A stretch of DNA of 64,000 nucleotides, taken from contig JBAYKW010000005.1 in assembly GCA_041664365.1 (NCBI GenBank), forward strand, positions 29,204 to 93,203, in the 5' to 3' direction. Below the pieces are notes generated by a model. That model was not told where the DNA came from, did no database searches, and was given only the letters and a program-made list of their open reading frames with translations. This stretch comes from Patescibacteria group bacterium. Lineage in GTDB: Bacteria; Patescibacteriota; Patescibacteriia; UM-FILTER-42-10. Both the position numbers and the translations under genes were made by a program. Position 1 is the first letter of the stretch. The number at the start of each line of letters is the position of its first letter. This document shows, piece by piece, positions 1 to 43,522 of the stretch.

Positions 1-716
1 TCAGACGAAGAATATGCCATTACTTTATTAAAATCCGGATTTGTTTCCAAAAATACCAAAGCGGTCATCATTTTTGTCAGACTGGCAATCCACCATTGTT
101 TATCCGAATTTAATTCATATAGCACTGCGCCGGTGCGTTCATCAATAGCAATCGCCGTTTCCGCCTGGATACTTGGATTGCCTGCTCCGGTAATTTTTAC
201 CGGTCCGTCCAGAACGCCGGTGGTTTCAAATACGGCGACAATCGACCAGGGAAAATGAATCGCCGCTTTAGCAATGTTGTTTGCGTAATCAATCGTGGTT
301 GGTATCGGCCGCCATTCATTCGTAATTCTGTCCCAAAAATGAATTCTCTTTTTATAAACATTCTCTGATTCAAATTTTAGGGAGATAAATACCGGCTTAT
401 CAAGTACAGTCGGATTTTGAACACGGATATCATAGACATATACCGGACTGATCAATTCTTTGGTTGACGGGATTTCGTAGTTTAAATAGTCAGATTCTTT
501 TATTTTCACCCAGGCACCCTCTGTGAATATTCCTCCGCGGATTCCGACCATAAAGTCATAATGCTTGCTCGGAACAGTGTATCCTTTTGCCATAGTGTCT
601 TGATTCAGATAGCGTGCCCGGTTTAATGTCTCTACCGCATCGGCTGGGTGTGAAAATGACAGAAATAATATTCCTGTTGCTATTATGGTTAAGCCTTTGT
701 AATTTTTGTTTTTCAT
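1..716 (-). CDS. D-alanyl-D-alanine carboxypeptidase (PBP5/peptidase S11-like), 3'-truncated at the window edge, with a roughly 180-aa N-terminal extension domain
   Basis: My own translation of the minus strand from the ATG at 716-714. It gives a signal-peptide-like N-terminus (MKNKNYKGLTIIATGILFL...) and, near the window edge, ...AIAIDERTGAVLYELNSDKQWWIASLTKMMTAL. The SLTKMM stretch is the classic SxxK active-site motif of DacA-type carboxypeptidases. The reading frame runs off position 1. Confidence 0.6.
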   Translation of the reverse strand, partial: MKNKNYKGLTIIATGILFLSFSHPADAVETLNRARYLNQDTMAKGYTVPSKHYDFMVGIRGGIFTEGAWVKIKESDYLNYEIPSTKELISPVYVYDIRVQNPTVLDKPVFISLKFESENVYKKRIHFWDRITNEWRPIPTTIDYANNIAKAAIHFPWSIVAVFETTGVLDGPVKITGAGNPSIQAETAIAIDERTGAVLYELNSDKQWWIASLTKMMTALVFLETNPDFNKVMAYSSS

Positions 717-721
717 AGTCT

Positions 722-1210
722 TTAAAATAATTGCCAAAAAAATAATCCGATCATTAACAGTCCGATAATGAATTTGATCAAAGTTCCGCTTAGAAAGCCA
801 ATAAATGTTCCCAAACCCGCCTTCAGCGCTTTGCGGTGATCTTTTCCGCTGATCAGTTCGCCGATTGTTGCTCCGATCATCGGACCAATAATCAAGCCGA
901 CCAGTCCGCCGGTAATGATTCCGATCATCATCCCAAAGATTGATCCGGCGATACCCCACCTTCCCGCTCCGAATTTCTTTGCTCCGTAAATATTCGCCAG
1001 ATAGTCAATAACGAAAGAAAAAATCATCAATAAGGTAAATATGGTCATTACCAGCCAGCCGACTTCCCGGAAATCGGTAAGGAAAGCGTAGATTAATGCG
1101 CCCAGCCAGATTAAAGGAATGCCGGGAAGCAGCGGAAAAACAATTCCAACCAAACCTACCGTAAAAAACAGTATTGCAATCCCTAGAAAAATTATTACTT
1201 CCCAGCCCAT
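722..1210 (-). CDS. Small polytopic membrane protein (DUF456-like, Gly-rich transmembrane helices)
   Basis: 162-aa ORF. Entirely hydrophobic with GxxxG-rich helices (GIAGSIFGMMIGIITGGLVGLIIGPMIGATIG). Confidence 0.45.
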   Translation of the reverse strand: MGWEVIIFLGIAILFFTVGLVGIVFPLLPGIPLIWLGALIYAFLTDFREVGWLVMTIFTLLMIFSFVIDYLANIYGAKKFGAGRWGIAGSIFGMMIGIITGGLVGLIIGPMIGATIGELISGKDHRKALKAGLGTFIGFLSGTLIKFIIGLLMIGLFFWQLF

Positions 1211-1410: not shown

Positions 1411-2016
1411 ATGAACGAAAACATCACTAAAAAGCAAAAAGAAATCCTGGACTATATCACGGAATTCATTTCCGTAAACGGCTACTCCCCCAGTTATCGG
1501 GAAATGGCGGATTATTTCGGCTTGTCATCCCCCGCCACTATTTTTGAACATATCAAAGGATTGGAGGACAAAGGATTTATTAAAGCGGAAGAGAGAAAAG
1601 CCCGGTCCATTAAAATATTCAAGGAGAAAAAGAAAGAGATGCCCGCACTCGAACTGCCATTAGTAGGATTAATCACCGCCGGTGAACCGATCGAAGCGAT
1701 TGAAGAAAGAGAAACAATTTCCATACCGGTCGGGTTGGTTGACAGCATTAATTCCTTCGTACTGAAAGTCAAAGGCGAATCCATGATCGGCGAAGGAATA
1801 TTTGACGGAGATTACGTGGTCTGCGAAAGAAACTACTATCCGAAGAACGGCGACGTGGTTGTAGCGCTTTTAAATAATGAATACGCAACTCTCAAAAAAT
1901 ATTTCCGGGAAAAAACCAGAATCCGCCTGCAACCGGCCAATCCCAATATGAAACCGATCTTTTCCAAGAACCCGGTAATTCAGGGGATCGTCAAAGCCAT
2001 CTTCAGAAAATATTAA
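1411..2016 (+). CDS. lexA: LexA repressor (SOS regulator, S24 self-cleaving peptidase)
   Basis: N-terminal winged-helix region (EILDYITEFISVNGYSPSYREMADYFG). Ala-Gly cleavage region (LITAGEP). Catalytic Ser in VKGESM and Lys in ATLKKY. Length 201 aa. Confidence 0.9.
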   Translation: MNENITKKQKEILDYITEFISVNGYSPSYREMADYFGLSSPATIFEHIKGLEDKGFIKAEERKARSIKIFKEKKKEMPALELPLVGLITAGEPIEAIEERETISIPVGLVDSINSFVLKVKGESMIGEGIFDGDYVVCERNYYPKNGDVVVALLNNEYATLKKYFREKTRIRLQPANPNMKPIFSKNPVIQGIVKAIFRKY

Positions 2017-2040: not shown

Positions 2041-2289
2041 ATGTTCAAAACAATCAATGAAACCATCAAAGTAACCAGCTCTTTCTTTCGGGACAGGGTA
2101 ATACCGGAAAAGTTTGAATGGAACGGACAGCAACATGTGATTGAAAATTCCAAACTGGTGCACGCCGCAAAAAAAGGCGAAGGGAAAATGTTTTTCTTTG
2201 ATGTGCAGGATGACCGGGATTTATATAAACTTTCTTTTGATACCAGAAGTCTGGAGTGGGAGTTGAACCAGGTTTTTATTCAAAAATAA
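2041..2289 (+). CDS. Hypothetical 82-aa protein, first of a tandem paralog pair between lexA and dinB
   Basis: Follows the lexA stop by 24 nt. Shares the pattern TINETI..F.W.....I....L.H..K.G....YF.V.DD..YKL.F....L.W.L with the next ORF. Confidence 0.55.
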   Translation: MFKTINETIKVTSSFFRDRVIPEKFEWNGQQHVIENSKLVHAAKKGEGKMFFFDVQDDRDLYKLSFDTRSLEWELNQVFIQK

Positions 2290-2292
2290 TTT

Positions 2293-2541
2293 ATGTACGA
2301 AACGATCAATGAAACAATTGAAGTTCTGGTTCGTTTTGGCAAGCAGACTATTGCCCCCGCTGTTTTCCGCTGGCGGAATAAAATATACAAGATCGAAAAA
2401 GTTAACCTAGCACACAGTGGTAAGGTGGGAGATGAAAAATGGTACTACTTCTCCGTTTCTGATGATGCCAATTATTATAAACTTGCCTTTAACAGCACAA
2501 CTTTGAAATGGTATTTGGATGAATTATATATAGAGGGCTAA
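2293..2541 (+). CDS. Hypothetical 82-aa protein, paralog of 2041..2289
   Basis: Starts 3 nt after the stop of the preceding ORF. Same length and clear sequence similarity (MYETINETIEV... versus MFKTINETIKV...; YYKLAFNSTTLKWYL versus LYKLSFDTRSLEWEL). Confidence 0.55.
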   Translation: MYETINETIEVLVRFGKQTIAPAVFRWRNKIYKIEKVNLAHSGKVGDEKWYYFSVSDDANYYKLAFNSTTLKWYLDELYIEG

Positions 2542-2631: not shown

Positions 2632-3849
2632 ATGGAAAAAATAATATTTCATATTGATATGGATTCGTATTTCGCCACCTGCGAACAACAAGCGAATCCT
2701 TTTTTGCGTGGCAAGCCGATCGCCGTTTCCGGCCATCCGGATTCGCGTACCGTAATTTCCGCCGCATCCAAGGAAGCCAAGAAACTGGGTGTAAAATCCG
2801 CTATGCCTATTTTTGAAGCCAGGCGCATTTGTCCAGACATCATTTTTGTCCCCGGGGATTTTGAAAAATATGTGCATATCACTAAAACTATCATCAGAAT
2901 ATTTCTTTCCTTTACCGACCAAGTGGAAGTAACCAGCATTGATGAGGCATTCATGGACGTTACTCCTATTGCCAAAAGATACGGCGGAGCAATCCACGTC
3001 GCCAACAAAATAAAAGCAGAATTAAAACAGCAAGTTGGTGACTGGATGACCTGCTCGATCGGTATCGCACCGAATAAGCTGATGGCTAAACTGGCTTCAG
3101 GATTGAGGAAGCCCGACGGCATCATGTTTGTACCACAAAAAGATATCCTTTCTGTTTTAAAAACTATTGAACTTACAGACTTGTGCGGGCTGGGCCGTCA
3201 GACAGAAAAGCATTTAAACAAAATTGGAATTAAAAATCTGGCTGAACTAAAGCAATATCCCTTAATCAAACTAATCAGGGAATTCGGCCAAACGGGCTTG
3301 CAACTACATAATATGAGCTGGGGCAGGGGTTCTGACTATGTCCCCTCTTATTATGAAAGTTACCAGGAGAAATCAATGGGGCATCAGATTACCCTACCGA
3401 AAAATACCCTAGATCTGGAATATTTGAATAACACACTTTTGAAGCTTTGTGAGAAAACCGGACGCAGAATGCGAGAAGCTAAACTATCCGGTCGGGTGGT
3501 CAGCGTGTTTATCAGATACAACAATTTTGAAGGCATCTCCCGACAAAAGGCGGTAAAGATTAATGTTGACGACGGGTATCAGATTTTTGAGCTAGCCAGA
3601 AATATTTTAAAATCATTTTCATTCAAATATCCCGTGCGCTTGATTGGGGTCAGTGTTGCCAAGCTTTCCTATTCTAATCAATACGCGCTTCCTTTCGCAG
3701 ACACAAAAAAGAAACAAGCAATCCTGCAGGCGATGGATGCCGTAAATAATAAGCATGGAGAATTTACTATTCAGCGCGCTTGCCTGTTAAAAGATCTCGG
3801 GTTAAAGAGAGATTTGCCGGCACACGGGCTGATGCGTAAATACCTATAG
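2632..3849 (+). CDS. dinB: DNA polymerase IV (Y-family translesion polymerase)
   Basis: N-terminus IFHIDMDSYFATCE matches the DinB/UmuC catalytic Asp motif. A polymerase-associated little-finger region follows. Length 405 aa. Confidence 0.9.
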   Translation: MEKIIFHIDMDSYFATCEQQANPFLRGKPIAVSGHPDSRTVISAASKEAKKLGVKSAMPIFEARRICPDIIFVPGDFEKYVHITKTIIRIFLSFTDQVEVTSIDEAFMDVTPIAKRYGGAIHVANKIKAELKQQVGDWMTCSIGIAPNKLMAKLASGLRKPDGIMFVPQKDILSVLKTIELTDLCGLGRQTEKHLNKIGIKNLAELKQYPLIKLIREFGQTGLQLHNMSWGRGSDYVPSYYESYQEKSMGHQITLPKNTLDLEYLNNTLLKLCEKTGRRMREAKLSGRVVSVFIRYNNFEGISRQKAVKINVDDGYQIFELARNILKSFSFKYPVRLIGVSVAKLSYSNQYALPFADTKKKQAILQAMDAVNNKHGEFTIQRACLLKDLGLKRDLPAHGLMRKYL

Positions 3850-11997: not shown

Positions 11998-14886
11998 CTA
12001 CTTCAGAAGAAGCATCTTGCGCGTAATCGACCGCCCCTCCGCTTCCAGGCGGTAGAAATACGTGCCAGAGGCAACTCGTTGCCCGGAGTCGTCCGTGCCA
12101 TTCCAGACGATCTGGTGCTGACCGGAAACAACCGTTCCGTCGACAAGCGTTGCAACCAGTCCGCCACGGACGTTGAAAACCTTCAGAGAGACATGGTCTT
12201 CGCGCGTCGTGGCAAAGCGGATCGCGGTCTGTGGATTGAACGGGTTCGGGAAGTTCGTTGCCAGTGAAGTCTGGTTCGGAACTTCGTCCCCAACTCCGAC
12301 CGGAACCATGACCGGACCAAGTCTGGTCAGCGGATCCCCGATCTTCATCATGGTGTTCAGTTGCCTGATCACCCACGGCCGGTTGGCGTACAGTACCGCC
12401 ATCTCTTCTTCGGCGAGCGCAATGCTCTCGAAGATTGGCCGCATCGGATCCTCAAGAATCTTGGCCGTGACGTGGTAGCCGATAACCTTGTTCGAGGAAA
12501 GCAGCGAACCACAGCTCGGCCCGTAGAATCCCACCGCACCGGCTTCATGGAACATCATGTCTTCCACCACTGGTGTGTGGTAGTAGGCTGCGTCATCCGT
12601 CGGAGCGATAGCAGCAGTACCACAGGTCGCGCCGATGAAAAACGGATGATGATTCATGAACGGCCAAACCAGGTCCATGCTCCACACGTAGTCGCCAAGC
12701 TCGCGCTTGGAGTACATGTTGCCGGGATAGTGCGGGCCGGACTGGCTTGCGAACATGATGTTGAGGTTGGTGTGTCCGCCCATGTTCCCGTTCCATTGAT
12801 CTGCACAGATCGAGTTGCGCAGTTCGGGGTTCCGGTACACGGATTCCTTCACTTCGGAAGTCCAGTTCCCATGCGATTGGAGCAGGGTACGGACAGTGTC
12901 CGCAGAAGCTGCGGCAACCGCACCGTCTCCAGGAGCTATGTGATCCATATCGCCGACAAACAACCCGACTCCGGACGAAGTCCAAGGAGTCCAGTAATCA
13001 GTCGACTCCTGTGCCACCAGCGAAGCCGCAGCAATCTGCAACAGCTCGGTAACCGCAAGGCGCGTTACCACCGTTCCAGGCAGCTCGTATGGCTGATCAG
13101 TGCGGTAGTAAGGCCACCACCATGCAAGATTCCGCCCCCGAGGGAGGTCATCCCGCACGGTAAAGCCAGGAATTACCACATGATCCAGTTGTGGCTGGTA
13201 GCGGTACAGCATCTGCAGCCGGATCGAAGCCCAAGGCCCAGTCCAGTACTCAGACCACCGCGTACCAAGGAAGTAGTGGTAGTCGTTGTCATCTGCACAA
13301 ATGAAGTGGTACCGGGCTCCCTCTGCCGTATGGAGTGCGATGCGCGACTGCAAGTACGCAATCTGCGCGTCTTCCTCCTCCGGCGTCTGCGGATACCCGG
13401 GAACAACATCCACCAGAACAGTGTAGCCGAACAGGCGACGGTAAGCTGCGTATTGTTCCACAGCGGCCGCGAATGGCGCTACTGTGTAGCAAACCAGCGT
13501 TTCCCCGTCACCGATGTTCATCGGAAGTACCGGTACGATCTCCCCACGGTCACGCGCCGCCTGCTGGTCTGCGATCGCCTGCTCGAAGTAATCGAGTGTG
13601 CGAGGCAGTGCCTGCATTGCGGGACGAGCCAGTGGAACTGTCGGTTGCGCGTAGCCGTGGACGATGATGTTCGGCGGAATGGCGTCTCCGTTGTTATTCT
13701 CCTCCCGTTCGCAGAGACGGAACCATTCGTGACCACTGGCAAGCGCATCGCTGATATCCAGCTGGTACTCCGTGAAACCGGGCCCCTGCTCGATACCGAC
13801 GATTTCCCACGGACCATCCGTGGTAGCCGCCGACTCGACGTAGTATGCTTCAGTCCTATATTCGGATCCAACCAGCCACTTGGCGGTCTGGCCTTCAACC
13901 GAAAAATGGACGTCCGCAGCGCCGTTGGTGCCGACGAAGAATCCCCACATATCAGTCAAATGGACAATGGGAATTCCGTTGCCACTTGTGAAGTTCCCGG
14001 TAACCCAACCGGTGCCATTACCAGTAGCACAGAGTCTCGCACGGTAGGTGTGATCATCTGCCCAGGAACCTGAGCAAACTTGCACGAGCCCATCACCCGT
14101 GGGAGTTCCTGTCATGGCGCCCGTGAAGGTCCATTCAACATCAAGTCCTTCTGCAGGCACGATCAGTCCGAACTCAGGAGATTCTACGACTTCCGGTGCC
14201 AAAATCGTCGCACCTTCACCAGCTACCACAATTGAGCCGTCTCGGGAACTTGTGACAGTTGAACCACTGCCCATCGATTCCCAAAAAGTCTGTGCGTAGT
14301 TGGCGTTAGATGCGGCGAATCCGCAGAATACCCTCCGGCTTCCCCAGGAGCTTTCCCAGGTACTGGAACCACATGCCCAGTTGAAGACGAAGGTGTTGTT
14401 CGAAGTGAACTTGCTACTGATTGCTGTGCTTTTCAAGGCAATACAATAGCTTTCGGCGGTCGTGACTCTCTCAATACTGGCACTTGTCCAGCCATGAGCA
14501 AGATAGAAATCCCAGTTGTTGTCACGAACCGCCATGCTGTTCCGGTCGTACGGTTCAACGCTGATCGCACCATAGGTCCAGCCGTCGACTCCACTACCAT
14601 GGCCGTGCGTCTGGATCCACCAGACTCCATAGCTGTTGTCAAGCAGGTAGTAGAAGTCGTCCATGCCGAAGGAAGGCGCCGTGGTTCCCGGGCTAAGATG
14701 GGCCGCTTCAGTAACAACATAACCCTTGCTGGTCAATGCCGTTACATAGGCCACGCCATCATCCGTACCCCAGGTGTCCTCGTAGAATTGAGCGAGAACC
14801 CCGGTGTTTGTACCCGGAGTATCCGGAGATCCGTACCCCACGCTTGCAGCGAGGAGCAAGATCATGGTGAGCAAGAATCGCTTCAT
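11998..14886 (-). CDS. Large secreted caspase-fold (C25/gingipain-like) peptidase with a T9SS-type C-terminal sorting domain (high-GC gene)
   Basis: Signal peptide. THGHGSGVDGW and FNWACGSS form a candidate His/Cys dyad. The C-terminus FPNPFNPQTAIRF...SGTYFYRLEA...RKMLLLK is a Por-secretion-tail-like domain. The start is preceded by GGGAGGAG. About 62% GC. Confidence 0.6.
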   Translation of the reverse strand: MKRFLLTMILLLAASVGYGSPDTPGTNTGVLAQFYEDTWGTDDGVAYVTALTSKGYVVTEAAHLSPGTTAPSFGMDDFYYLLDNSYGVWWIQTHGHGSGVDGWTYGAISVEPYDRNSMAVRDNNWDFYLAHGWTSASIERVTTAESYCIALKSTAISSKFTSNNTFVFNWACGSSTWESSWGSRRVFCGFAASNANYAQTFWESMGSGSTVTSSRDGSIVVAGEGATILAPEVVESPEFGLIVPAEGLDVEWTFTGAMTGTPTGDGLVQVCSGSWADDHTYRARLCATGNGTGWVTGNFTSGNGIPIVHLTDMWGFFVGTNGAADVHFSVEGQTAKWLVGSEYRTEAYYVESAATTDGPWEIVGIEQGPGFTEYQLDISDALASGHEWFRLCEREENNNGDAIPPNIIVHGYAQPTVPLARPAMQALPRTLDYFEQAIADQQAARDRGEIVPVLPMNIGDGETLVCYTVAPFAAAVEQYAAYRRLFGYTVLVDVVPGYPQTPEEEDAQIAYLQSRIALHTAEGARYHFICADDNDYHYFLGTRWSEYWTGPWASIRLQMLYRYQPQLDHVVIPGFTVRDDLPRGRNLAWWWPYYRTDQPYELPGTVVTRLAVTELLQIAAASLVAQESTDYWTPWTSSGVGLFVGDMDHIAPGDGAVAAASADTVRTLLQSHGNWTSEVKESVYRNPELRNSICADQWNGNMGGHTNLNIMFASQSGPHYPGNMYSKRELGDYVWSMDLVWPFMNHHPFFIGATCGTAAIAPTDDAAYYHTPVVEDMMFHEAGAVGFYGPSCGSLLSSNKVIGYHVTAKILEDPMRPIFESIALAEEEMAVLYANRPWVIRQLNTMMKIGDPLTRLGPVMVPVGVGDEVPNQTSLATNFPNPFNPQTAIRFATTREDHVSLKVFNVRGGLVATLVDGTVVSGQHQIVWNGTDDSGQRVASGTYFYRLEAEGRSITRKMLLLK

Positions 14887-16816: not shown

Positions 16817-17923
16817 TTACTGCTTGTCAATACCGACAGCATGATAATCAAAATTCAACCGATCCAAAATAACACTCCCCTCCTCACTACTGGCAAATCT
16901 TGGCTGAGCATAGTCTTCAATAATTACCGGAAAGAATTCAAGCCCGCTGATTCCCTCTTTAGAAAAAGTAATTTCCGCTATCATTCCTTCCCTGGTTTCT
17001 TGAGACCACATCTGGTCAAAAACAAAATTTCCCAGGCTGTAAATAATATATCCTTTCTGATATTTTTCCATTGTCTGCACGACGTGCGGATGGTGACCAA
17101 TCACCAGATCGGCTCCGGATTCAATAGCGGCATGTGCAAAATCTTTTTGGTGCTGATCGGGCGTAAACTCATACTCATTACCATCATGCATAGATACAAT
17201 TACAAAATCGGCAGTTTCGGATGCACCAGAAACATCCTGTTTCATTTTATCAAAATCCATAAAGGCAATTGTTGGTTCCTGCTCTTCAGAATCATAATCC
17301 ATTACAGGACTGCTTGCGTAACTATATGCCAGAAATGCAAACGATATTCCATTAATCTCCTTCGTATAAGTCTGAAATGCATCCTTAACACTTTTCCCCG
17401 CCCCCATATAACCTATTCCGGATTCATCTAAATATTTAAAGGTATCGGATAATCCTTCTTTACCAAAATTCAGAGAATGATTATTGGCGAGTGTAACAAG
17501 ATCAATGCCGGCAAATTGTAATCCTTCGACAGATTCCGGATCGGAGCGAAAAACCATTTCGTTCGTATTGATTTTCCTCCCTAGTGTAATTGGAGATTCC
17601 AGATTACCAAAAGTAATATCAGCACTTTTTAATAATTCTGCTGTTTTGAGAAAAGGATAATTAAAATCACTATATTTCTGCATCTTCGTATCTACGTCTC
17701 TGGAAAGCATAATATCCCCTACTGCCATTATCGTTACAACCGGCTCGTTCTTTTCAATGTCAACAACTGGTTGATTACTATTTATCGTAATATTTGAATT
17801 GTCATGTGCATTTGAAATGTTTCTTGTCGGCTCAATAATGCTTCCGCGGAGAATAAAAAAACCGATTCCAAGAGCTACTGCTATTTCCAGTATAATATAG
17901 TACTTTTTATTGAATATTTTCAT
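16817..17923 (-). CDS. CapA/PgsA-family metallophosphatase (poly-gamma-glutamate capsule synthesis-like)
   Basis: N-terminal TM helix. VGDIMLSR...ADITFGNLESPI...IVSMHDGNEY...VIGHHPHVVQ. Confidence 0.75.
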   Translation of the reverse strand: MKIFNKKYYIILEIAVALGIGFFILRGSIIEPTRNISNAHDNSNITINSNQPVVDIEKNEPVVTIMAVGDIMLSRDVDTKMQKYSDFNYPFLKTAELLKSADITFGNLESPITLGRKINTNEMVFRSDPESVEGLQFAGIDLVTLANNHSLNFGKEGLSDTFKYLDESGIGYMGAGKSVKDAFQTYTKEINGISFAFLAYSYASSPVMDYDSEEQEPTIAFMDFDKMKQDVSGASETADFVIVSMHDGNEYEFTPDQHQKDFAHAAIESGADLVIGHHPHVVQTMEKYQKGYIIYSLGNFVFDQMWSQETREGMIAEITFSKEGISGLEFFPVIIEDYAQPRFASSEEGSVILDRLNFDYHAVGIDKQ

Positions 17924-18128: not shown

Positions 18129-18237
18129 AAGGGTTATTAAAAAGAATCAACGTTACTTAAGACGTTGTTTTTATTTATATCCAACCACAACTACCAATAC
18201 GGTTTTATTATCTATTCCCTAATCCCTACACCCTAAT

Positions 18238-19155
18238 CTACACCCTCAAATACCTACTGATCGCAATCATACCGCTGATTACACTGATTACAATAGAAAT
18301 CAGAATTTGCAGACCGAGCATTGCCCAAAAATTTGCTGTGAAATACGCAAACATATTGAAATCATATCCTTCAAACAAGGTATCAATATATGGGGAGACA
18401 GCTGAAAGTAAAGGAAATAGAATCAAGATGGTAATTACACTTGCCAGAATTCCATACAAAACGCTTTCCAAAACAAACGGCAACCGGATAAACATATTCT
18501 GCGCGCCGACAAGTCGCATAATCCCCAGTTCTTCTCTCTGAGTATACATATTCATCCGTAATGTATTAAATACAACCAGGATAGCGACAAGGATAAATAT
18601 TGCACTTACGCCAAGTCCGAATTGATAAATCCGACCGGTAATTTTCGTAAGCCGTTCAATGACAACCTGATTATCCTCAAAATTCCTACTGGCAATCAAA
18701 CTGCTGTAATCCGAATTATCTAAATTCACAACGATAGTTGAATAATCCTCCAGGCGCACAGCTTTCACAATCAGAGCGGAAGGTAGTGGATTCTCCTCAA
18801 TCTCCGATAATGACTCCTGGATTTTTATATCGTCCTTATGTGCCTCTTTAAAATTCTCTAGAGCCTCATCCTTCGAAACATACTCAACACTTTTTACTTC
18901 AGAAATTGATTCCAAATATGCCTGGACAGCAAGAACTTTATCTTCCGGAACAGTAGGATCAAAGAATACATCCATATCCACCTGATCTTTAACGGATTTA
19001 ATTGCATTATCTGCTACAACATTTAAAGTAAAAACTAAACTGATAGAAAAAAGCGTCAGAACAAGAATAAATACCGTAACTAAAGATAGCCAGAAATTTC
19101 GTTTAAAATTTTGAAAGCCGAATTTTAATATTCTTCCAAGTGTTGTAAATATCAT
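18238..19155 (-). CDS. ftsX: Cell division permease FtsX
   Basis: FtsX-type topology and the C-terminal 3-TM permease region. Adjacent to ftsE. Confidence 0.85.
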   Translation of the reverse strand: MIFTTLGRILKFGFQNFKRNFWLSLVTVFILVLTLFSISLVFTLNVVADNAIKSVKDQVDMDVFFDPTVPEDKVLAVQAYLESISEVKSVEYVSKDEALENFKEAHKDDIKIQESLSEIEENPLPSALIVKAVRLEDYSTIVVNLDNSDYSSLIASRNFEDNQVVIERLTKITGRIYQFGLGVSAIFILVAILVVFNTLRMNMYTQREELGIMRLVGAQNMFIRLPFVLESVLYGILASVITILILFPLLSAVSPYIDTLFEGYDFNMFAYFTANFWAMLGLQILISIVISVISGMIAISRYLRV

Positions 19156-19846: not shown

Positions 19847-20986
19847 TTATAATTCTTCAACACGCACACGAATAACTCCATCCATATATAAACTGGCAAT
19901 TGTACCAAAAGCCTTGCTAGTTAAATCAATAATTCTACCGGCTACAAACGGTCCTGTGGATACCACTGTAACATCCACCCATTTACCATTGGCTAAATTG
20001 GTAACTCTTAAAATAGTATCATATGGATAATCATTAGACGCTGCCCCGTTTGGATATTTACTGCTTTGATACCAGCTGGCGTATCCCGTTTCCATATAGT
20101 TACTATTTCTCAACACCACTACTTTTGCGTATTTGAGATGGATAAAGGCTCTTACCTCATCACCACCCGGGGATGTTTTTGAAGGTAAGGGAATCCAGGC
20201 TCCTTTATTACCGTCATAGTAATACATTTCCTTTTTATGGTCATCAGGTTCTGTTAATCGCATGTTTAAAATAACCGGCTTGGCAAACACAATGGGTTTG
20301 GCTGTTTTTAATTCAAAAGAATAGATATCACTTGCCTGCTCGAGACCGTCAGGAAACTGAGCATTTTCTTGAGAGTCTATTTTAAACACAATGGTAGCCG
20401 GCTGGTCAATCGTATTTGAATTAACTCCAACTTTGAAATTTGAGTCCTCATCATTTGCGACTGTATAACCCTTTTCTAAAGTTGCCCTGTCCAATCGAAC
20501 TCTGTAAGCTCTTTTTTCTAGAACAATCAGTTTTGCCGACACGGCAGTGATTTGTCCTTTGATTTTGGTATCAGAAGATTTTGAATCTATTTTCTGCCAA
20601 GAATTTTTTTCCTCATTATAATAATATAAATGCTTTGGTGTTAAATTTTCCGATTCATAATTAACAGCAACATTGACCGGATATTGAAGATCTGAGGTTT
20701 GAACACCGGAGAATGAATACTGATAAACATTACTTACCGCAGTTGTATCCTTCGGCAAAGCCGGGAAACTTTCCAATTCATTCAAATTGGCAGTCAGGGC
20801 ACCTTCATACAAACCCGCAACAACTCCGACACTGAACTGGGAATCAGCAAAATTAACGGTATATCCTTTCGCTACTGTATCAGCATCCAGGTATAAACTT
20901 GTGTCAGCAGCCAGCGTTTCATTGGAAATAAAAAAAAGGCTTGCTAACGCGATCCCGAATATGATCTTGTTTTTGGCTCTTGTCAT
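19847..20986 (-). CDS. RlpA-like septal lytic transglycosylase (C-terminal double-psi beta-barrel) with two N-terminal copies of an uncharacterised KGYTV domain
   Basis: C-terminus GYASWYQSS...YDTILRVTNLANGKWVDVTVVSTGPFVAGRIIDLTSKAF...VRVEE is the RlpA DPBB. The N-terminus has two roughly 130-aa repeats, each starting at (A/E)KGYTV. Confidence 0.7.
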   Translation of the reverse strand: MTRAKNKIIFGIALASLFFISNETLAADTSLYLDADTVAKGYTVNFADSQFSVGVVAGLYEGALTANLNELESFPALPKDTTAVSNVYQYSFSGVQTSDLQYPVNVAVNYESENLTPKHLYYYNEEKNSWQKIDSKSSDTKIKGQITAVSAKLIVLEKRAYRVRLDRATLEKGYTVANDEDSNFKVGVNSNTIDQPATIVFKIDSQENAQFPDGLEQASDIYSFELKTAKPIVFAKPVILNMRLTEPDDHKKEMYYYDGNKGAWIPLPSKTSPGGDEVRAFIHLKYAKVVVLRNSNYMETGYASWYQSSKYPNGAASNDYPYDTILRVTNLANGKWVDVTVVSTGPFVAGRIIDLTSKAFGTIASLYMDGVIRVRVEEL

Positions 20987-21025
20987 GTCAAATACTATTC
21001 TAGTATAATGTTACTGTTTAGACAA

Positions 21026-21212: not shown

Positions 21213-21629
21213 TTATTTTTTGTTTAAAACCTTTTTTGCTGTTTCTACCACTTCTTTCGGCAGAAAGTTTGCTTTAATCAAATAATCCACCGCTCCTAAA
21301 CTGCTGGCTTTTTTTCTGTCTTCCGGACTGTCCAGATTGGTCAGGGTAATGACCGGGATATTCTTTGTCTTTGGATCTTTTTTTAATCGTCCCAATAAAT
21401 TAAATCCTACTCTTTTGCTGAATTCTATTACTTTTCCCTCCGCTTCAGGGATAATAACATCCAATAGAACTAACGAGACACCGTTTTCCTGAGCAAGTTT
21501 TAATCCGCCGGATGCATTAGTAGCAACTAAAAGCTCATATGTGGAATTACGAAAAGCAGCCTGATACATCGAAACTAAGCTTGGCTCATCTTCCACTAAT
21601 AATATTTTTTTACCCGCCTTTGATGCCAT
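21213..21629 (-). CDS. Response regulator receiver (CheY-like, standalone REC)
   Basis: KKILLVEDE, LVLLDVIIP (phospho-acceptor Asp), KAN.. region. Confidence 0.8.
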   Translation of the reverse strand: MASKAGKKILLVEDEPSLVSMYQAAFRNSTYELLVATNASGGLKLAQENGVSLVLLDVIIPEAEGKVIEFSKRVGFNLLGRLKKDPKTKNIPVITLTNLDSPEDRKKASSLGAVDYLIKANFLPKEVVETAKKVLNKK

Positions 21630-21684
21630 AATAATTTAGTTATGTATTTATAGTACCAAAATTTGATGATGATTTCAAATAGCC

Positions 21685-23829
21685 CTATTTAATAGGTATT
21701 GTTAAAGTAAATTTACTGCCTTTGTTCTTACCCTTGCTTTCAGCGGTAATTGTTCCACCCATTGCCTCCAGCATCTTCTTGGCAATAAATAATCCCAAAC
21801 CCGTGCCGTTTGGATGGACTTGTAATATCCCCTCTCCGCGGGTGAATTTTGTGAATATCGATCTTAAGTCATTCTTGCTCATTCCGATTCCGTTATCTGT
21901 AACTTCAATCACGATCTGATTTTCTTTTCTGCGCGCCGATATGTTTACATTCCCTCCCGCAGTGTAATGAACCGCATTGTCAATAATATTTGTAATCGCC
22001 TCTTTAAGTTTGATTGGATCCGCAAGCGTTTTCGGAATTGGCCGAACCGGCTTATCAAAAACTAGTTTCACTTTTAATTGGTCCGCCAGCGGCAACAAAC
22101 CGCGCACAATTTCTTCTATAATATGTTCAATTCTGACTTTCTTGAAATCCATCCGCATTTTTTTGCCTTCCAGCTCCGTGGCATTCAGTAATTCATGAAT
22201 AATTCTTTCCAAACGGTTGATCCCCTCATAAGCCTGCGAGATAAATCTTTCCCTCTCGTCATTCGGTAGATCTTTTTCTTCAATAACAAGTGAAAGCATT
22301 CCGCGTACAATGCTGGTTGGCGTCCTTAATTGATGTGATGCAACGGTAAGAAAGTCTGACTTGATTTTCAAAAGTTCCCTCAAGCGTTTCGTCGCGTCAT
22401 CAACTTTGTATTTGAGTGTTTCATTGAAACCCTGTATCTCATTATACAACCGCGCGTTTTCAATTGAGATTGCCGCGTGGTTAGCGAGCGATTCAAGCAG
22501 TCTCATATCTTCCTGGGTATATGCGTCACGTGATATTTTTTTGCCTAGAATAATACAAGAGATTAATTCACCTTTAGAAACTAGCGGCAGTACAACAGCA
22601 ACGTCCTGGCTTTTCATCTGTTCTTTAGCATATTCAATATCTTCCTCCGAATAATTATAATTCTGTGCATTCCGAACCAGTTCGTCATAGACCAGCGGTT
22701 TTTTGATTGCGGATATAAAATCACTGCAACGGGAATTTGTAACCATCCTGGTTAGGTTTGATTCATTGAAACCAATTATCTTCATCGGTTCATAATGCTT
22801 ATTCTTTACAAAAAGACCGACATTATCCATCCTCATGGTTTGCTGGACAGTATCAACCACAACATTTGCGACTTCCGGCAAGTTGATTGTGGAAGATACA
22901 TCTTTTGAAAATTTGTCCAGCGTTTCCTGATAGTCATAAAGGCTGGCAAAAAAGTATTTATTGCTCAGTTGCTTCAGTTTTTTGCTCATAAAGACGAATC
23001 CAGCTAAAAACAAAGGTGCAAAAACAATAGCAGTCAGTAATGCGCCAAGGGTAAACGGACCACCGAAACTGGTGTAATCTGACCATGCCACCAAGTAATA
23101 TGCACTAACAACAAATATTCCCATACCAATATAAAACACCGCTTTCCTGATTACCAATCGGATATCCATCAGGCGATATTTAGTTATTGCATACGTAATT
23201 ATAACTATATAAAGTGTTACAAGAAAATTACCAAATGGGTAAAGATGAGAAATTTGCGGAAGGAAATTTGTCGATCCACCAACAAAGCCAATAGCACTTG
23301 CAATCATAACATATTTGATTTGTTGCCTTGTTACACCTGATGATTTTTTGTAGTGGATTAACAGAAATAATAACGATACTGAATTCAATACCACAAAATA
23401 TATTGGAAATAATATATATAAACTTCCGGGATTTATCCAAAACTGAAAACTCCCCAATGGTTCCACTCCCTGTTTGAATAGTGGCGAAAAACTAAATACA
23501 GATAAAAGAATTGTTATTACATATGCAAACCGAACTAATAGTCTATTCTTTTTCTCTTTATTCGATAATCTTACAACAAACTCTAAAAAGAATACTGGGA
23601 TCGCTATTGCAGAAATATCCAGAATATTTTGAGCTAATTCAGCAACTTGCCTTGAATTCGATGAAACAACAAAGAATAAACCAAAGCTCCATACACTAAC
23701 TGCAATATTTGCTTTAATCCATGAACGATTTATTAATAAATCTCGATTCTTAACAAATATAAACAAAGCTTGAGTAAGACTTAATAATGCCGTAATAAAA
23801 CTCGATATGCCAAAAGCACTAATAACCAT
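21685..23829 (-). CDS. Sensor histidine kinase (N-terminal 7TM domain, GAF-like region, HisKA, HATPase_c)
   Basis: H-box ASHQLRTPTS. N/G boxes (NAVHYT, DNGIGM, GTGLGL). Six to seven N-terminal TM helices. Confidence 0.85.
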   Translation of the reverse strand: MVISAFGISSFITALLSLTQALFIFVKNRDLLINRSWIKANIAVSVWSFGLFFVVSSNSRQVAELAQNILDISAIAIPVFFLEFVVRLSNKEKKNRLLVRFAYVITILLSVFSFSPLFKQGVEPLGSFQFWINPGSLYILFPIYFVVLNSVSLLFLLIHYKKSSGVTRQQIKYVMIASAIGFVGGSTNFLPQISHLYPFGNFLVTLYIVIITYAITKYRLMDIRLVIRKAVFYIGMGIFVVSAYYLVAWSDYTSFGGPFTLGALLTAIVFAPLFLAGFVFMSKKLKQLSNKYFFASLYDYQETLDKFSKDVSSTINLPEVANVVVDTVQQTMRMDNVGLFVKNKHYEPMKIIGFNESNLTRMVTNSRCSDFISAIKKPLVYDELVRNAQNYNYSEEDIEYAKEQMKSQDVAVVLPLVSKGELISCIILGKKISRDAYTQEDMRLLESLANHAAISIENARLYNEIQGFNETLKYKVDDATKRLRELLKIKSDFLTVASHQLRTPTSIVRGMLSLVIEEKDLPNDERERFISQAYEGINRLERIIHELLNATELEGKKMRMDFKKVRIEHIIEEIVRGLLPLADQLKVKLVFDKPVRPIPKTLADPIKLKEAITNIIDNAVHYTAGGNVNISARRKENQIVIEVTDNGIGMSKNDLRSIFTKFTRGEGILQVHPNGTGLGLFIAKKMLEAMGGTITAESKGKNKGSKFTLTIPIK

Positions 23830-39460: not shown

Positions 39461-39463
39461 AAC

Positions 39464-40591
39464 TTAAAATAATTCCTTTAAGTAAATTGAATGTGTCTTT
39501 TCGACCATCTTTATCCAACTGAACTGTTTTATGTGTTCACGTCCTTTTGCTCGCAAACTTTCCTGCAATGATTTATCCTGGATTACCGTTTTTAGTACCT
39601 GTACTATATCACTTATTTCATCCGGATGAAAGTATTTTGCCGCGTCGCCCAGTATCTCGGGCATACACGGAGCATTTGAAGATAATACAGGCAAGTCATA
39701 ACTCATTGCCTCCAGTGGTGGTAAGCCGAAACCTTCAATTGAAGACGGGAAAACATATAGCATGGCCGAACGATAAAACAATGGCAGTTCGGCATCGCTG
39801 ATAAACCCGGTAAAGATTACATTGTCGGTAATTCCATACTCTTTAACCGATAACTCCAGTCGCTCGGAGAAATAATCCCGCTTGCCGACCAAGACTAACT
39901 GCACGTCAATCTTCTCTTCTTCACGCAATTTTTTGAAAGCGATGATCAGTCTTTCCAGATTTTTGTGCGGATAGGTGTTTCCGACATACAACAGAAACGG
40001 TTTGGTAATATTATGCCTTTGGGCAATTTCAGAAAAATCTCCCTCACCCTGTCTGGGCGCGTCGCACGCTTCATATGTTACTACCACCTTTTCATCTTTA
40101 ACTTTGAAATGTTTCACTATTTCTTGTTTGGAAAACTGAGAAACAGTAATGATTCTTTCCGCTTTTTTTGCCGCCATCCAGATAACTATTTTATACCCTG
40201 TTTGTTTTGCCTTATACAGAATCGGGCCGAGCTTAGTTGCTCGTCTGGTGGGAAAATGCGTAATTATCAGATCGTGAATGGTTACTACAAATTTTCCCCG
40301 GTATAATATCGGGATGTTAAAATGAGGGAAATGCATCAGATCCACTTTTTCCTTTTTTATTTTTCCGGGCATCTTGAGCTGTTCAGCCAGCGAATACCAG
40401 CGATAATCCGCCAGCACTTTTTTAAACCTGCTGTTTTTCGGCTGAAATTCGTCCCAATTATCTTTGCGTAAAAAAACTACATACTCATTATTATCATCAA
40501 TATCCTGCAGATAATCTACGAGCTTTTGGGTATACCTACCCGGACCTGTTCTGGTCGGCCCGTAAAACCGGGCGTCTATTCCTATTCTCAT
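39464..40591 (-). CDS. Glycosyltransferase family 4
   Basis: EGFGLPPLEAMSYDLPVLSS is the GT4 E-x7-E region. Confidence 0.85.
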   Translation of the reverse strand: MRIGIDARFYGPTRTGPGRYTQKLVDYLQDIDDNNEYVVFLRKDNWDEFQPKNSRFKKVLADYRWYSLAEQLKMPGKIKKEKVDLMHFPHFNIPILYRGKFVVTIHDLIITHFPTRRATKLGPILYKAKQTGYKIVIWMAAKKAERIITVSQFSKQEIVKHFKVKDEKVVVTYEACDAPRQGEGDFSEIAQRHNITKPFLLYVGNTYPHKNLERLIIAFKKLREEEKIDVQLVLVGKRDYFSERLELSVKEYGITDNVIFTGFISDAELPLFYRSAMLYVFPSSIEGFGLPPLEAMSYDLPVLSSNAPCMPEILGDAAKYFHPDEISDIVQVLKTVIQDKSLQESLRAKGREHIKQFSWIKMVEKTHSIYLKELF

Positions 40592-40609
40592 ATTGATTCG
40601 TTTTACTAC

Positions 40610-41752: not shown

Positions 41753-41760
41753 AAATAGTT

Positions 41761-42390
41761 TTAAATATTTTCCTTTGCCTGCGACGGAGTTTTGAAATAT
41801 CGGATCATATATACAAAAACAATGCTCAATACTAATCCGACAATAAATCCGATAATGGTTGTCAGAATAATTTGAGGATCATTTTTCACAATTACCGGCT
41901 TTTCACCGACAATTTCAAAAAGTGCTTTATTATCCGCAGTTTGATTGATTGTAACCGCTTTTTCTTCAACGACTAAAATTACCGCCTGGGAAATTTTATT
42001 TGCTGTTTCTTCATCACGCTCGTTAAATCTGACGACGATGTTTTGTGGTGAATATTTCTTTGTTTTAAAACGATTCGCAAACTTTTCCAGCGATTCAATC
42101 TTTGGATCGACATCTCCATTTTCATATATATCCAAAAGGACTGACGGGGTAAGAAACCAACTGATCACGGTTTGAGAAAAAAGATCAGATGCCTGGATAC
42201 CGAAATAACTGTCATCATAGTACGGGGTATCCTGTTTATTTATTCTGTTCACAGCAAAAGAGATGGATGAAGCATAGGTTACCGGTCGGTAGTTAGTAAC
42301 CAAAAATGCACCCAACGCGACTAACAGTGTAAAAGTGATGATAAACACTCTGCTTTTTCTCAAAATTGATATATGCTCTTTTAATTCCAT
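41761..42390 (-). CDS. Wzz/CpsC-like polysaccharide chain-length determinant (short form)
   Basis: N-terminal and C-terminal TM helices flanking a periplasmic domain. Located within the glycosyltransferase cluster. Confidence 0.5.
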   Translation of the reverse strand: MELKEHISILRKSRVFIITFTLLVALGAFLVTNYRPVTYASSISFAVNRINKQDTPYYDDSYFGIQASDLFSQTVISWFLTPSVLLDIYENGDVDPKIESLEKFANRFKTKKYSPQNIVVRFNERDEETANKISQAVILVVEEKAVTINQTADNKALFEIVGEKPVIVKNDPQIILTTIIGFIVGLVLSIVFVYMIRYFKTPSQAKENI

Positions 42391-42395
42391 AATTT

Positions 42396-43505: not shown

Positions 43506-43522
43506 ATATTTATCATATCATA

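What the first reader, a model, noticed from the sequence alone, without database searches (positions are those of the whole stretch)
1..716. Shared uncharacterised roughly 130-aa KGYTV domain fused N-terminally to two different peptidoglycan enzymes (DacA-like carboxypeptidase and RlpA-like transglycosylase)
**What the sequence shows**
- The N-terminal extension of the PBP5-like protein at 1..716 aligns with two tandem repeats at the N-terminus of the RlpA-like protein (19847..20986).
- The aligned PBP5-like segment is AKGYTVPSKHYDFMVGI ... VYVYDIRV ... PVFISLKFESENVYKKRIHFWDRITNEWRPIP ... AAIHFPWSIVAVFE.
- The two RlpA-like repeats are each (A/E)KGYTV ... F.VGV ... VY.Y.F ... P..I.L.YES.N ... 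YYYD..KN.W..I.SK ... A.I...AKVVVL.

**Interpretation**
- A common targeting module on two septal or cell-wall enzymes suggests a lineage-specific cell-wall or divisome-binding domain.
Basis: seen in the sequence. Interest (0 to 1): 0.6.

Follow-up and report, generated by a model that had tools for sequence, protein, structure and literature searches.

The report
ZU5-like domain on cell-wall enzymes
Two cell-wall enzymes of a Patescibacteria-type bacterium share a real, previously uncatalogued ~140-residue N-terminal domain with the ZU5/GAIN fold but no self-cleavage motif, and the RlpA-like genes that carry it usually sit just upstream of the division genes ftsE-ftsX, which suggests it is a targeting module for division-site wall remodelling.

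Summary
The N-terminus of the truncated DacA-like gene (716->1, minus strand) and two tandem segments of the RlpA-like gene (19847..20986, minus strand) are homologous (BLASTP E 2e-17, 8e-15, 1e-10). The domain ("X") defines a real family with 384 cluster representatives in an exhaustive HMM search. In about 140 of the top 150, it lies N-terminal to a DPBB (RlpA-like) domain, a Peptidase_S11 (DacA-like) domain, or both. No Pfam, NCBIfam or PDB sequence model covers it.

An AlphaFold2 model (pLDDT 95) matches ZU5 domains of ankyrin and UNC5 and the GAIN domains of adhesion GPCRs (TM 0.65-0.73). The X profile also hits repeats in S-layer-type surface proteins that end in the canonical H[LF]T-x-FAV self-cleavage motif. 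In X that turn is mostly H[LF]P, and the three window copies read HFP, HLK and TAV. X is therefore a predicted non-cleaving ZU5-superfamily domain.

In 8 of 10 independent lineages, X-bearing DPBB genes are immediately followed by ftsE-ftsX. X-less DPBB genes (0 of 74 loci) and X-S11-only genes (0 of 4) are not.

Best reading: X is a targeting or docking module for FtsEX-linked wall remodelling. Its ligand is untested. I rate it a new variant of a known kind, of moderate interest.

The parts
1..716 (-). Gene A: signal peptide, X domain, then Peptidase_S11 (DacA-like DD-carboxypeptidase). The C-terminus is cut by the window start.
   Evidence: Translation. Pfam S11 5e-13 over aa 178-225. NCBIfam DacA/PBP3-type partial hits.
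636..716 (-). Gene A signal peptide (aa 1-27, ...HPADA|VE)
   Evidence: Read directly from the sequence; coordinates.
207..635 (-). Gene A X domain (aa 28-170). The KGYTV motif is at 573..587. The degenerate GPS-like turn HFP is at 249..257.
   Evidence: BLASTP and tblastn. AF2 model pLDDT 95.4. Foldseek matches ZU5/GAIN. Motif counts.
3..185 (-). Start of the Peptidase_S11 domain, with the SxxK active-site motif SLTK at 72..83
722..1210 (-). DUF456 membrane protein gene. It ends 5 bp before the gene A start, so co-transcription is possible. This neighbour is not conserved in other X-S11 loci.
   Evidence: Pfam DUF456 2.9e-43. Other X-S11 contexts.
19847..20986 (-). Gene B: signal peptide, X, X, then DPBB (RlpA-like), 379 aa
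   Evidence: TIGR00413 rlpA partial hit, 36.6 bits.
20507..20908 (-). Gene B X copy 1 (aa 27-160). KGYTV is at 20855..20869. The turn reads TAV.
20087..20506 (-). Gene B X copy 2 (aa 161-300). KGYTV is at 20459..20473. The turn HLK is at 20132..20140.
19850..20086 (-). DPBB (RlpA-like) domain. Asp354 in RIIDLT (19925..19927) is conserved. The 'NDRGP' Asp is replaced, giving VSTGP.
   Evidence: PMC9712689.
19158..19838 (-). ftsE (ABC ATPase). Its start lies 8 bp after the gene B stop codon.
   Evidence: Pfam ABC_tran 4.4e-36. Synteny.
18238..19155 (-). ftsX (FtsX_ECD plus FtsX permease domain)
   Evidence: Pfam 7.8e-17 and 1.2e-15.
18148..18167 (-). Terminator-like hairpin just downstream of ftsX (weak, consensus scan only)
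20997..21025 (-). Promoter-like site just upstream of gene B (weak, consensus scan only)

Best explanation
**What X is.** X is a ~140-residue all-beta domain of the ZU5/GAIN-GPS superfamily.
- It has lost the self-cleaving H-[L/F]-[S/T] turn. Pro occupies, or a one-residue deletion removes, the nucleophile position.
- This part is shown or directly inferred from sequence and the structural model.

**Where it sits.** In Patescibacteria-type bacteria, X is placed directly after the signal peptide of an RlpA-like (DPBB) lytic transglycosylase and of a DacA-like (S11) DD-carboxypeptidase. These two enzymes are either separate, as in this window, or fused as X-DPBB-S11.

**What I think it does (inferred).** X is a non-catalytic targeting or docking module.
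- It would hold these secreted enzymes at the site where the FtsEX complex governs wall remodelling during division.
- The most likely mechanism is protein-protein contact with the extracellular domain of FtsX or another divisome component.
- In that role X would replace the coiled-coil domain of known FtsEX partners (EnvC, PcsB, CwlO, RipC) and the SPOR domain of proteobacterial RlpA.
- Keeping X on each enzyme when the fusion is split would bring both activities to the same place.
For: **A real family**
- Pairwise E-values are 2e-17, 8e-15 and 1e-10.
- The profile search found 384 representatives.

**Architecture**
- X is N-terminal to DPBB and/or S11 in about 140 of 150 representatives.
- X subfamilies track architecture in a nearest-neighbour test: X-S11 34/40, X-DPBB 31/43, X-DPBB-S11 17/24. 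The pairing is therefore old and maintained.

**Fold**
- The AF2 model has pLDDT 95.4 and pTM 0.88.
- Its top 25 Foldseek PDB hits are nearly all ZU5 (ankyrin, UNC5b) or GAIN (BAI3, BAI2, CD97, CELSR1), the exceptions being two axonemal doublet-microtubule chains. Best E is 4.6e-6, TM 0.65-0.73, probability 1.0.

**Sequence bridge to cleaving ZU5-type repeats**
- The X HMM hits three repeats each in the SLH surface proteins P0084 and P0113 at 1e-12 to 1e-17. These repeats end in VEVDH[LF]T[KQ]FAV[LM].
- One such repeat is the only sequence here that gives a Pfam ZU5 hit, and that hit is sub-threshold.
- Bacterial ZU5 autopeptidases on surface proteins are described in PMC3482391 and PMC11488536.

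**Loss of the cleavage motif**
- At the turn between the last two strands (positions 128-130) the family reads HLP 42, HFP 15, PFP 12 and so on.
- Only 3 of 141 sequences read H[LF]S.
- The window copies read HFP, HLK and TAV.

**Link to FtsEX**
- The X-bearing DPBB gene is directly followed by ftsE(-ftsX) in the window, in L005/L006 (30% identity), and in L007, L084, L085, L087, L093 and L094. That is 8 of 10 independent lineages.
- None of 74 loci with X-less DPBB genes has FtsE or FtsX within 5 kb.

**Other support**
- E. coli keeps rlpA and dacA adjacent (mrdA-mrdB-rlpA-dacA). This supports a functional pairing of the two enzyme types.
- The DPBB catalytic Asp is retained.
Against: - No binding data exist. 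Synteny links the whole X-DPBB protein to FtsEX, not X specifically.
- X-S11-only genes are not next to ftsEX (0 of 4: window, L082, L095, L096).
- Two DPBB-bearing loci (L090, L092) lack ftsEX downstream.
- All characterised FtsX partners use coiled coils, not beta-sandwiches (established knowledge).
- Pfam ZU5 does not match X at any threshold, so superfamily membership rests on a predicted structure plus one sequence bridge.
- G19, T21, S64 and W109 are also conserved in the cleaving-type repeats. They are probably fold determinants rather than a ligand site.
- Only one relative carries an organism name (Patescibacteria).
Confidence: 0.45

Rival explanations
1. X is a peptidoglycan- or glycan-binding retention module. 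It would be a functional substitute for SPOR in RlpA and for the C-terminal anchor of PBP5, keeping secreted enzymes on the wall of a single-membrane cell without touching FtsX.
For: - Both host enzymes act on peptidoglycan, and gene B has no SPOR, LysM or lipobox.
- X-S11 relatives (about 430 aa) have no domain after S11.
- X-S11 genes are not linked to ftsEX.
- One relative combines X with PG_binding_1 (P0132).
- The conserved aromatic and polar residues Y20, T21, S64, K97, D103 and W109 could line a sugar-binding site.
Against: - ZU5/GAIN-type domains are known as protein-interaction or self-processing modules, not lectins (established knowledge).
- Carbohydrate-binding modules match the model poorly (TM 0.2-0.4, E>0.02).
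- Several of the conserved residues are shared with cleaving-type repeats, so they look structural.
- X domains are mostly acidic to neutral (median pI 5.0-6.6). That is a weak argument against electrostatic wall binding.
- This reading does not explain why only X-bearing DPBB genes sit beside ftsEX.
Confidence: 0.3
2. X is still an active ZU5-type autopeptidase or a removable pro-domain. The enzymes would be secreted as inactive precursors and released by self-cleavage.
For: - X is homologous to repeats that carry the canonical H[LF]T motif.
- The literature describes bacterial ZU5 as a processing autopeptidase of surface proteins.
- Three family members keep H[LF]S.
Against: - His at position 128 is only 48% conserved.
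- Position 130 is Pro in 71% of sequences and Ser or Thr in about 9%.
- None of the three window copies has a nucleophile at that turn.
- In GAIN and ZU5, cleavage leaves the last strand embedded in the domain, so it would not release a domain located N-terminal to the enzyme (established knowledge; inference).
Confidence: 0.07
3. X is an inert structural spacer or stalk with no specific ligand. On this reading the ftsEX adjacency reflects only the DPBB enzyme's role.
For: No ligand has been identified, and X copy number varies from 1 to 3.
Against: - X has been maintained for a long time as architecture-specific subfamilies, with several nearly invariant residues.
- X is retained on both halves wherever the DPBB-S11 fusion is split.
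- X-less DPBB genes are never beside ftsEX.
Confidence: 0.1

Closest known systems
ZU5 superfamily: ZU5 of ankyrin/UNC5/PIDD, GAIN-GPS of adhesion GPCRs, and the bacterial 'ZU5 autopeptidase' of surface proteins and polymorphic toxins (Zhang et al. 2012, PMC3482391)
   Same: - The predicted beta-sandwich fold is the same (Foldseek TM 0.65-0.73).
- The last two strands are joined by a tight turn at the position of the H-L|T cleavage site.
- There is significant profile similarity to bacterial repeats carrying H[LF]T-x-FAV.
- Both occur on secreted or surface proteins with enzymatic domains.
   Different: - Pfam ZU5 does not detect X.
- The nucleophile is replaced by Pro or deleted, and the His is only 48% conserved. 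Self-cleavage is therefore not expected.
- X has its own signature (K-G-Y-T-V, K97, P130).
- X is attached specifically to DPBB and S11 wall enzymes rather than to toxins, adhesins or signalling proteins.
FtsEX-controlled cell-wall hydrolase partners (EnvC-amidases, PcsB, CwlO, RipC)
   Same: - The partner is a secreted wall-cleaving protein with a non-catalytic N-terminal domain ahead of the catalytic domain.
- It is genetically coupled to ftsE-ftsX; here it lies in the same apparent operon in 8 of 10 lineages.
   Different: - The N-terminal module is an all-beta ZU5-like domain, not a coiled coil.
- The catalytic domains are DPBB (lytic transglycosylase type) and S11 carboxypeptidase, not LytM, CHAP or NlpC/P60.
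- Physical interaction and regulation are untested.
RlpA (septal-ring lytic transglycosylase) and the proteobacterial rlpA-dacA gene pair
   Same: - The DPBB domain keeps the catalytic Asp (RIIDLT against E. coli RVISLS).
- RlpA and DacA are adjacent in E. coli and fused or co-equipped with X here.
   Different: - There is no lipobox and no SPOR domain.
- The score is below the TIGR00413 cutoff (36.6 against 82.15).
- The 'NDRGP' Asp is replaced, giving VSTGP.
- The targeting element is N-terminal (X) rather than C-terminal (SPOR).

Membership tests
ZU5 / GAIN-GPS superfamily | ZU5/GAIN-B beta-sandwich fold | tested here: met
   AF2 model pLDDT 95.4. The top Foldseek PDB hits are almost all ZU5 or GAIN, with E down to 4.6e-6, TM 0.65-0.73 and probability 1.0. 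This rests on a predicted structure, not a solved one.
ZU5 / GAIN-GPS superfamily | Sequence match to the curated ZU5 model (Pfam PF00791) above its gathering score | tested here: not met
   The window proteins and 56 family members give no ZU5 hit. Only a related SLH-protein repeat gives 15-17 bits against a cutoff of 21.
ZU5 / GAIN-GPS superfamily | Sequence-level homology to bacterial ZU5-type repeats that carry the H[LF][ST] motif | tested here: met
   The X HMM against repeats in P0084 and P0113 gives domain E 1.7e-12 to 7.7e-17. These repeats end in VEVDH[LF]T[KQ]FAV.
ZU5 / GAIN-GPS superfamily (autopeptidase members) | H-[L/F]-[S/T] cleavage motif in the turn before the last strand | tested here: not met
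   The window copies read HFP, HLK and TAV. Across the family the counts are HLP 42, HFP 15 and PFP 12, and only 3 of 141 read H[LF]S.
ZU5 / GAIN-GPS superfamily (autopeptidase members) | Demonstrated self-cleavage | not testable with these tools
   This needs intact-mass or SDS-PAGE analysis of the recombinant protein.
RlpA family (gene B) | DPBB domain | tested here: met
   Pfam DPBB_1 scores 35.5 bits against a cutoff of 28.8. PDB 4avr (PA4485) matches at 1.2e-7.
RlpA family (gene B) | NCBIfam TIGR00413 rlpA above its cutoff | tested here: not met
   36.6 bits against a cutoff of 82.15.
RlpA family (gene B) | Catalytic Asp. P. aeruginosa RlpA has D168; E. coli RlpA has a Ser and is inactive. 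| tested here: met
   RIIDLT aligns to E. coli RVISLS. D354 is invariant in A3 and A4. The role of this Asp is taken from PMC9712689. Which Asp is meant is my inference from the Ser in the E. coli sequence.
RlpA family (gene B) | SPOR domain and lipoprotein lipobox | tested here: not met
   There is no SPOR hit in Pfam. The signal peptide has no Cys.
Peptidase S11 / PBP5-DacA (gene A) | S11 domain with the SxxK motif | tested here: met
   Pfam scores 49.5 bits against 27.6, covering profile positions 5-52 only. SLTK is at aa 212-215.
Peptidase S11 / PBP5-DacA (gene A) | SxN and KTG motifs; PBP5 C-terminal domain | not testable with these tools
   The gene is cut by the window start. The full-length relative P0008 has S11 but no further Pfam domain.
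FtsEX-regulated hydrolase partners (EnvC/PcsB/CwlO/RipC type) | Coiled-coil domain that binds the FtsX extracellular domain | tested here: not met
   The X model is all-beta with one 6-residue helix.
FtsEX-regulated hydrolase partners (EnvC/PcsB/CwlO/RipC type) | Physical and functional dependence on FtsEX | not testable with these tools
   Only conserved adjacency is shown, in 8 of 10 lineages.
SPOR / carbohydrate-binding modules | Sequence or fold match | tested here: not met
   There are no Pfam hits. CBM32 and glycoside-hydrolase-associated modules reach only TM 0.2-0.4 with E>0.02.
Kelch repeat | Kelch blade repeats forming a propeller | tested here: not met
   Only the single hairpin Y-x-[FWY]-D-x(5)-W matches weakly (Pfam E>=0.0067 in 5 of 56 members; PDB Kelch hits cover about 20-30 residues). 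The fold is a sandwich, not a propeller.

The most novel reading that the evidence does not exclude
The ZU5-like X domain is the receptor that plugs wall enzymes onto the extracellular domain of FtsX. That would make it the first non-coiled-coil FtsEX partner. It would also be the first case in which FtsEX governs a lytic transglycosylase and a DD-carboxypeptidase rather than an amidase or endopeptidase. Such a system could be the main cell-separation machinery of the ultra-small Patescibacteria. The tandem X-X form might engage both FtsX subunits of the FtsE2X2 complex.
Probability: 0.3. Interest if true: 0.75.

Novelty: new variant of a known kind. Interest (0 to 1): 0.55.

Why it matters
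- Patescibacteria (CPR) make up a large share of bacterial diversity, yet how they divide and remodel their wall is almost unknown.
- This work identifies a widespread, uncatalogued domain that marks their RlpA-like and DacA-like enzymes. It assigns the domain to the ZU5/GAIN superfamily in a degenerate, non-cleaving form.
- It also shows a conserved operon with ftsEX. That gives a concrete, testable model for FtsEX-coupled wall cleavage in this group.
- If the docking model holds, it would broaden the known repertoire of FtsEX partners and of bacterial uses of the ZU5 fold.
- A profile for the family would improve annotation of several hundred protein clusters that at present are recognised only through their catalytic domains.

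Tried and rejected

- The search for homologous proteins returned nothing with the 3-sequence and the 56-sequence alignments. This is a limit of its word index, because the exhaustive HMM search found 384 representatives.
- The single-sequence AF2 model of gene B was useless (pLDDT 31).
- The viral fold library gave no hit at E<=1e-3.
- The genome-contig scan returned only one close relative.
- The metagenome scan mostly returned X-less DPBB genes. I used these as a negative control.

**Leads considered and rejected**
- Kelch: only a hairpin motif matches.
- SPOR, CBM and PBP5_C: no sequence or fold match.
- DUF4369: a chance hit at E 0.15.
- P0034: a low-complexity false positive.
- A conserved DUF456 neighbour of X-S11: not reproduced in other loci.
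- The ABC ATPase after X-S11 in L095: a generic ABC protein, not FtsE (1e-31 against about 1e-100 for orthologues).

**Unresolved point**
- The Jorgenson 2014 RlpA paper is not held. I inferred which Asp is catalytic from PMC9712689 plus the E. coli sequence.
Full report
**1.

- Window 716->1 (minus strand) is an ORF truncated by the window start.
  - It has a signal peptide at aa 1-27.
  - A ~140-aa segment follows, starting ...LNQDTMAKGYTV... and ending ...AAIHFPWSIVAVFE.
  - From aa 178 it carries a Peptidase_S11 domain (Pfam 5e-13) with SLTK as the SxxK motif.
- Window 19847..20986 (minus strand) encodes a 379-aa protein: a signal peptide, two tandem copies of the same segment, and a C-terminal DPBB (RlpA-like) domain.
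- BLASTP gives 2e-17 (Dac against copy 2), 8e-15 (Dac against copy 1) and 1e-10 (copy 1 against copy 2).
- Nineteen columns are invariant across the three copies.
- There is no fourth copy in the window.

**2. It is a real, sizeable family that current libraries miss**

- Pfam, NCBIfam and PDB sequence searches find nothing for the segment.
- The only weak matches are to Kelch models. They cover one hairpin (Y-x-[FWY]-D-x5-W) and do not reflect the fold.
- The word-indexed protein search returned nothing.
- The exhaustive HMM search of 1.84 billion cluster representatives found 384 proteins at E<=1e-3 and 186 at E<=1e-10.
- I classified the top 150 with local profiles, checked against Pfam:

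| Architecture | Count |
|---|---|
| X-DPBB | 43 |
| X-S11 | 40 |
| X-X-DPBB | 30 |
| X-DPBB-S11 | 23 |
| X-X-DPBB-S11 | 2 |
| X-X-X-DPBB | 1 |
| X-DPBB-other (P0089) | 1 |
| X-DPBB-S11-GH114 | 1 |
| X only (probably fragments) | 6 |
| Large SLH-type surface proteins with three copies | 2 |
| Low-complexity false positive | 1 |

- X is always N-terminal to the enzyme domains and usually follows the signal peptide directly.
- X domains cluster by architecture. The nearest neighbour has the same architecture in 34/40 X-S11, 31/43 X-DPBB and 17/24 X-DPBB-S11 cases. The arrangement is therefore ancient and maintained, not recent shuffling.
- The one named relative (72% identical to gene B) is a Patescibacteria MAG.

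**3. Fold**

- With a 56-sequence alignment, AlphaFold2 gives a confident all-beta model (pLDDT 95.4, pTM 0.88).
- Foldseek against the PDB returns almost only ZU5 and GAIN structures at the top:
  - ZU5 domains of ankyrin R/B/G and UNC5b;
  - GAIN domains of BAI3, BAI2, CD97, CELSR1 and GPR56.
  - E reaches 4.6e-6, TM is 0.65-0.73 on the query, and probability is 1.0.
- Carbohydrate-binding modules appear only far down the list with TM 0.2-0.4.

**4. A sequence bridge to self-cleaving bacterial ZU5 repeats, and loss of the cleavage motif**

- The X profile hits three tandem repeats in each of two large surface proteins, P0084 (SLH domains) and P0113. Domain E-values are 1e-12 to 1e-17.
- Five of those six repeats end in ...VEVDHFTKFAVM...VEVDHLTQFAVL or ...VRVEHFTKFAVM; the sixth (P0113 repeat 2) reads ...VQVDNTAKFAVM and lacks the H[LF]T triplet.
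  - This is the H-[L/F]|[S/T]-x-F-A-V pattern of GPS/ZU5 autoproteolysis. That recognition comes from established knowledge of GAIN and ZU5.
  - One of these repeats is the only sequence here with a Pfam ZU5 hit, and the hit is sub-threshold.
- Aravind and colleagues have described bacterial ZU5 autopeptidases on processed surface proteins and unified ZU5, GPS and Nup98 domains (PMC3482391, PMC11488536).
- In the X model, the corresponding turn between the last two strands is residues 128-130.
  - Across 141 X domains it reads HLP (42), HFP (15), PFP (12) and many other variants.
  - His is 48% conserved and Pro is 71% conserved.
  - Only 3 of 141 sequences read H[LF]S.
  - The window copies read HFP, HLK and TAV.
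  - Whichever register is used (a one-residue deletion, or HMMER's ungapped register), no Ser/Thr/Cys nucleophile is in place.
- X is therefore best described as a degenerate, predicted non-cleaving branch of the ZU5 superfamily.
- G19, T21, S64 and W109 are the most conserved X residues (88-99%). They are shared with the cleaving-type repeats, so they are probably fold determinants. K18, Y20, K97 and P130 are specific to X.

**5. Genomic context**

- In the window, gene B is followed after 8 bp by ftsE and then ftsX. A terminator-like hairpin lies after ftsX.
- The same order (X-bearing DPBB gene, then ftsE, then ftsX) recurs in several loci:
  - close relatives L001-L004;
  - a 30%-identical orthologue, L005/L006;
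  - L007;
  - loci of other architectures: L084 (X-DPBB-S11), L085/L086 (X-DPBB), L087 (X-X-DPBB), L093 (X-DPBB-S11, contig ends inside ftsE) and L094 (X-X-X-DPBB by the local profile; Pfam also places a PG_binding_1 hit at aa 245-283).
- Two DPBB-bearing loci lack it. L092 has no ftsE in the 560 bp available downstream, and L090 has an FtsW/RodA gene nearby instead.
- Controls:
  - None of 74 metagenomic loci with X-less DPBB genes has an FtsE or FtsX homologue within 5 kb.
  - None of four X-S11-only genes is next to ftsEX.
- E. coli keeps rlpA and dacA adjacent after mrdA-mrdB. This echoes the DPBB-S11 fusions found here.

**6. State of the catalytic domains**

- Gene B keeps the Asp of RIIDLT (D354), which is invariant among orthologues.
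- That Asp aligns with the Ser of E. coli RVISLS. PMC9712689 attributes the inactivity of E. coli RlpA to an Asp-to-Ser change at the catalytic position.
- The other conserved Asp, in 'NDRGP', is replaced, giving VSTGP.
- Activity is therefore plausible but not certain.
- Gene A has the SxxK serine. The rest of the domain lies outside the window.

**7. Interpretation**

- Shown:
  - X is a genuine, widespread domain.
  - It has a ZU5/GAIN-like predicted fold.
  - It has lost the cleavage motif.
  - It is dedicated to RlpA-like and DacA-like enzymes.
  - The DPBB-bearing forms are conserved neighbours of ftsEX.
- Inferred: X is a targeting or docking module.
- I favour contact with the FtsX extracellular domain or another divisome protein (about 0.4-0.45), for four reasons:
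  - ZU5-type domains are protein-interaction modules.
  - Every characterised FtsEX partner has a non-catalytic FtsX-binding domain N-terminal to its catalytic domain.
  - In the minimal X-DPBB proteins, X is the only non-catalytic domain.
  - Only X-bearing DPBB genes are linked to ftsEX.
- The main rival is direct wall binding (about 0.3). That reading fits the X-S11 genes being unlinked to ftsEX. The mostly acidic pI of X and the poor CBM matches argue weakly against it.
- An active autopeptidase or pro-domain role is unlikely (about 0.07).

**8. Novelty**

- Bacterial ZU5 domains are known.
- This family, its degenerate turn, its exclusive association with DPBB and S11 wall enzymes, and the ftsEX operon are not in Pfam or NCBIfam. 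They also do not appear in the searched literature: no paper combines ZU5 with FtsX, or CPR with FtsEX and peptidoglycan.
- I rate it a new variant of a known kind, of moderate interest.

Noticed in passing
window 2041..2289 and 2293..2541 (+): Two tandem, clearly paralogous 82-aa ORFs lie between lexA (1411..2016) and a 405-aa ORF (2632..3849) that I took to be DinB-like from its sequence alone (not scanned). Neither has a Pfam match. They may be a small SOS-associated gene pair.
   Followed up: partly
window 11998..14886 (-): A 962-aa protein combines Peptidase_C25, FlgD_ig and a Por_Secre_tail/CHU_C (type IX secretion-style C-terminal sorting) domain. This is unexpected in a Patescibacteria-type genome.
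   Followed up: no
window 37196..44914 (-): A surface-polysaccharide-type cluster. It contains a DUF4012 protein (754 aa), three GT4 glycosyltransferases and a Bac_transf priming transferase.
   Followed up: partly
L091 (E. coli K-12 NC_000913.3 662000-668000): E. coli has mrdA-mrdB-rlpA-dacA in a row. The RlpA and DacA pairing that is fused in many X-DPBB-S11 proteins is therefore also a conserved gene neighbourhood in a distant phylum.
   Followed up: partly
window 19850..20086 (-), gene B DPBB domain: The conserved 'NDRGP' Asp of RlpA-like DPBB domains is replaced (VSTGP), while the RIIDLT Asp is kept. Most X-X-DPBB orthologues share this. P0005 keeps DRGP.
   Followed up: partly
P0005, P0046, P0067 (family members, not in the window): Three X domains retain a canonical H[LF]S turn. 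They might still self-cleave and could be evolutionary intermediates between cleaving ZU5 repeats and the degenerate X family.
   Followed up: no
L089 (GCA_016841645.1 contig JAENYS010000003.1), 6001..9951: A 1316-aa surface protein has three H[LF]T-type ZU5-like repeats. It sits in a cluster of surface proteins carrying Fn3_assoc/CHB_HEX_C/Shr-like_HID/Cu_amine_oxidN1 domains, next to a Metallophos (ShfP-like) gene. This matches the ZU5-containing surface proteins described in PMC11488536.
   Followed up: partly
window 21213..23829 (-) and L001, L003, L004: A 7TM-HisKA_7TM/GAF histidine kinase and a stand-alone receiver protein lie just upstream of gene B-ftsE-ftsX, separated by a tRNA-Gly gene on the opposite strand. 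They are syntenic in the close relatives only.
   Followed up: partly
window 16817..17923 (-): A PGA_cap (CapA-like) gene lies downstream of ftsX, beyond a tRNA-Gln gene and a terminator-like hairpin.
   Followed up: no
L090 1141..6208: An X-DPBB-S11-GH114 four-domain protein (822 aa) is followed two genes later by an FtsW/RodA-family gene rather than by ftsEX.
   Followed up: no
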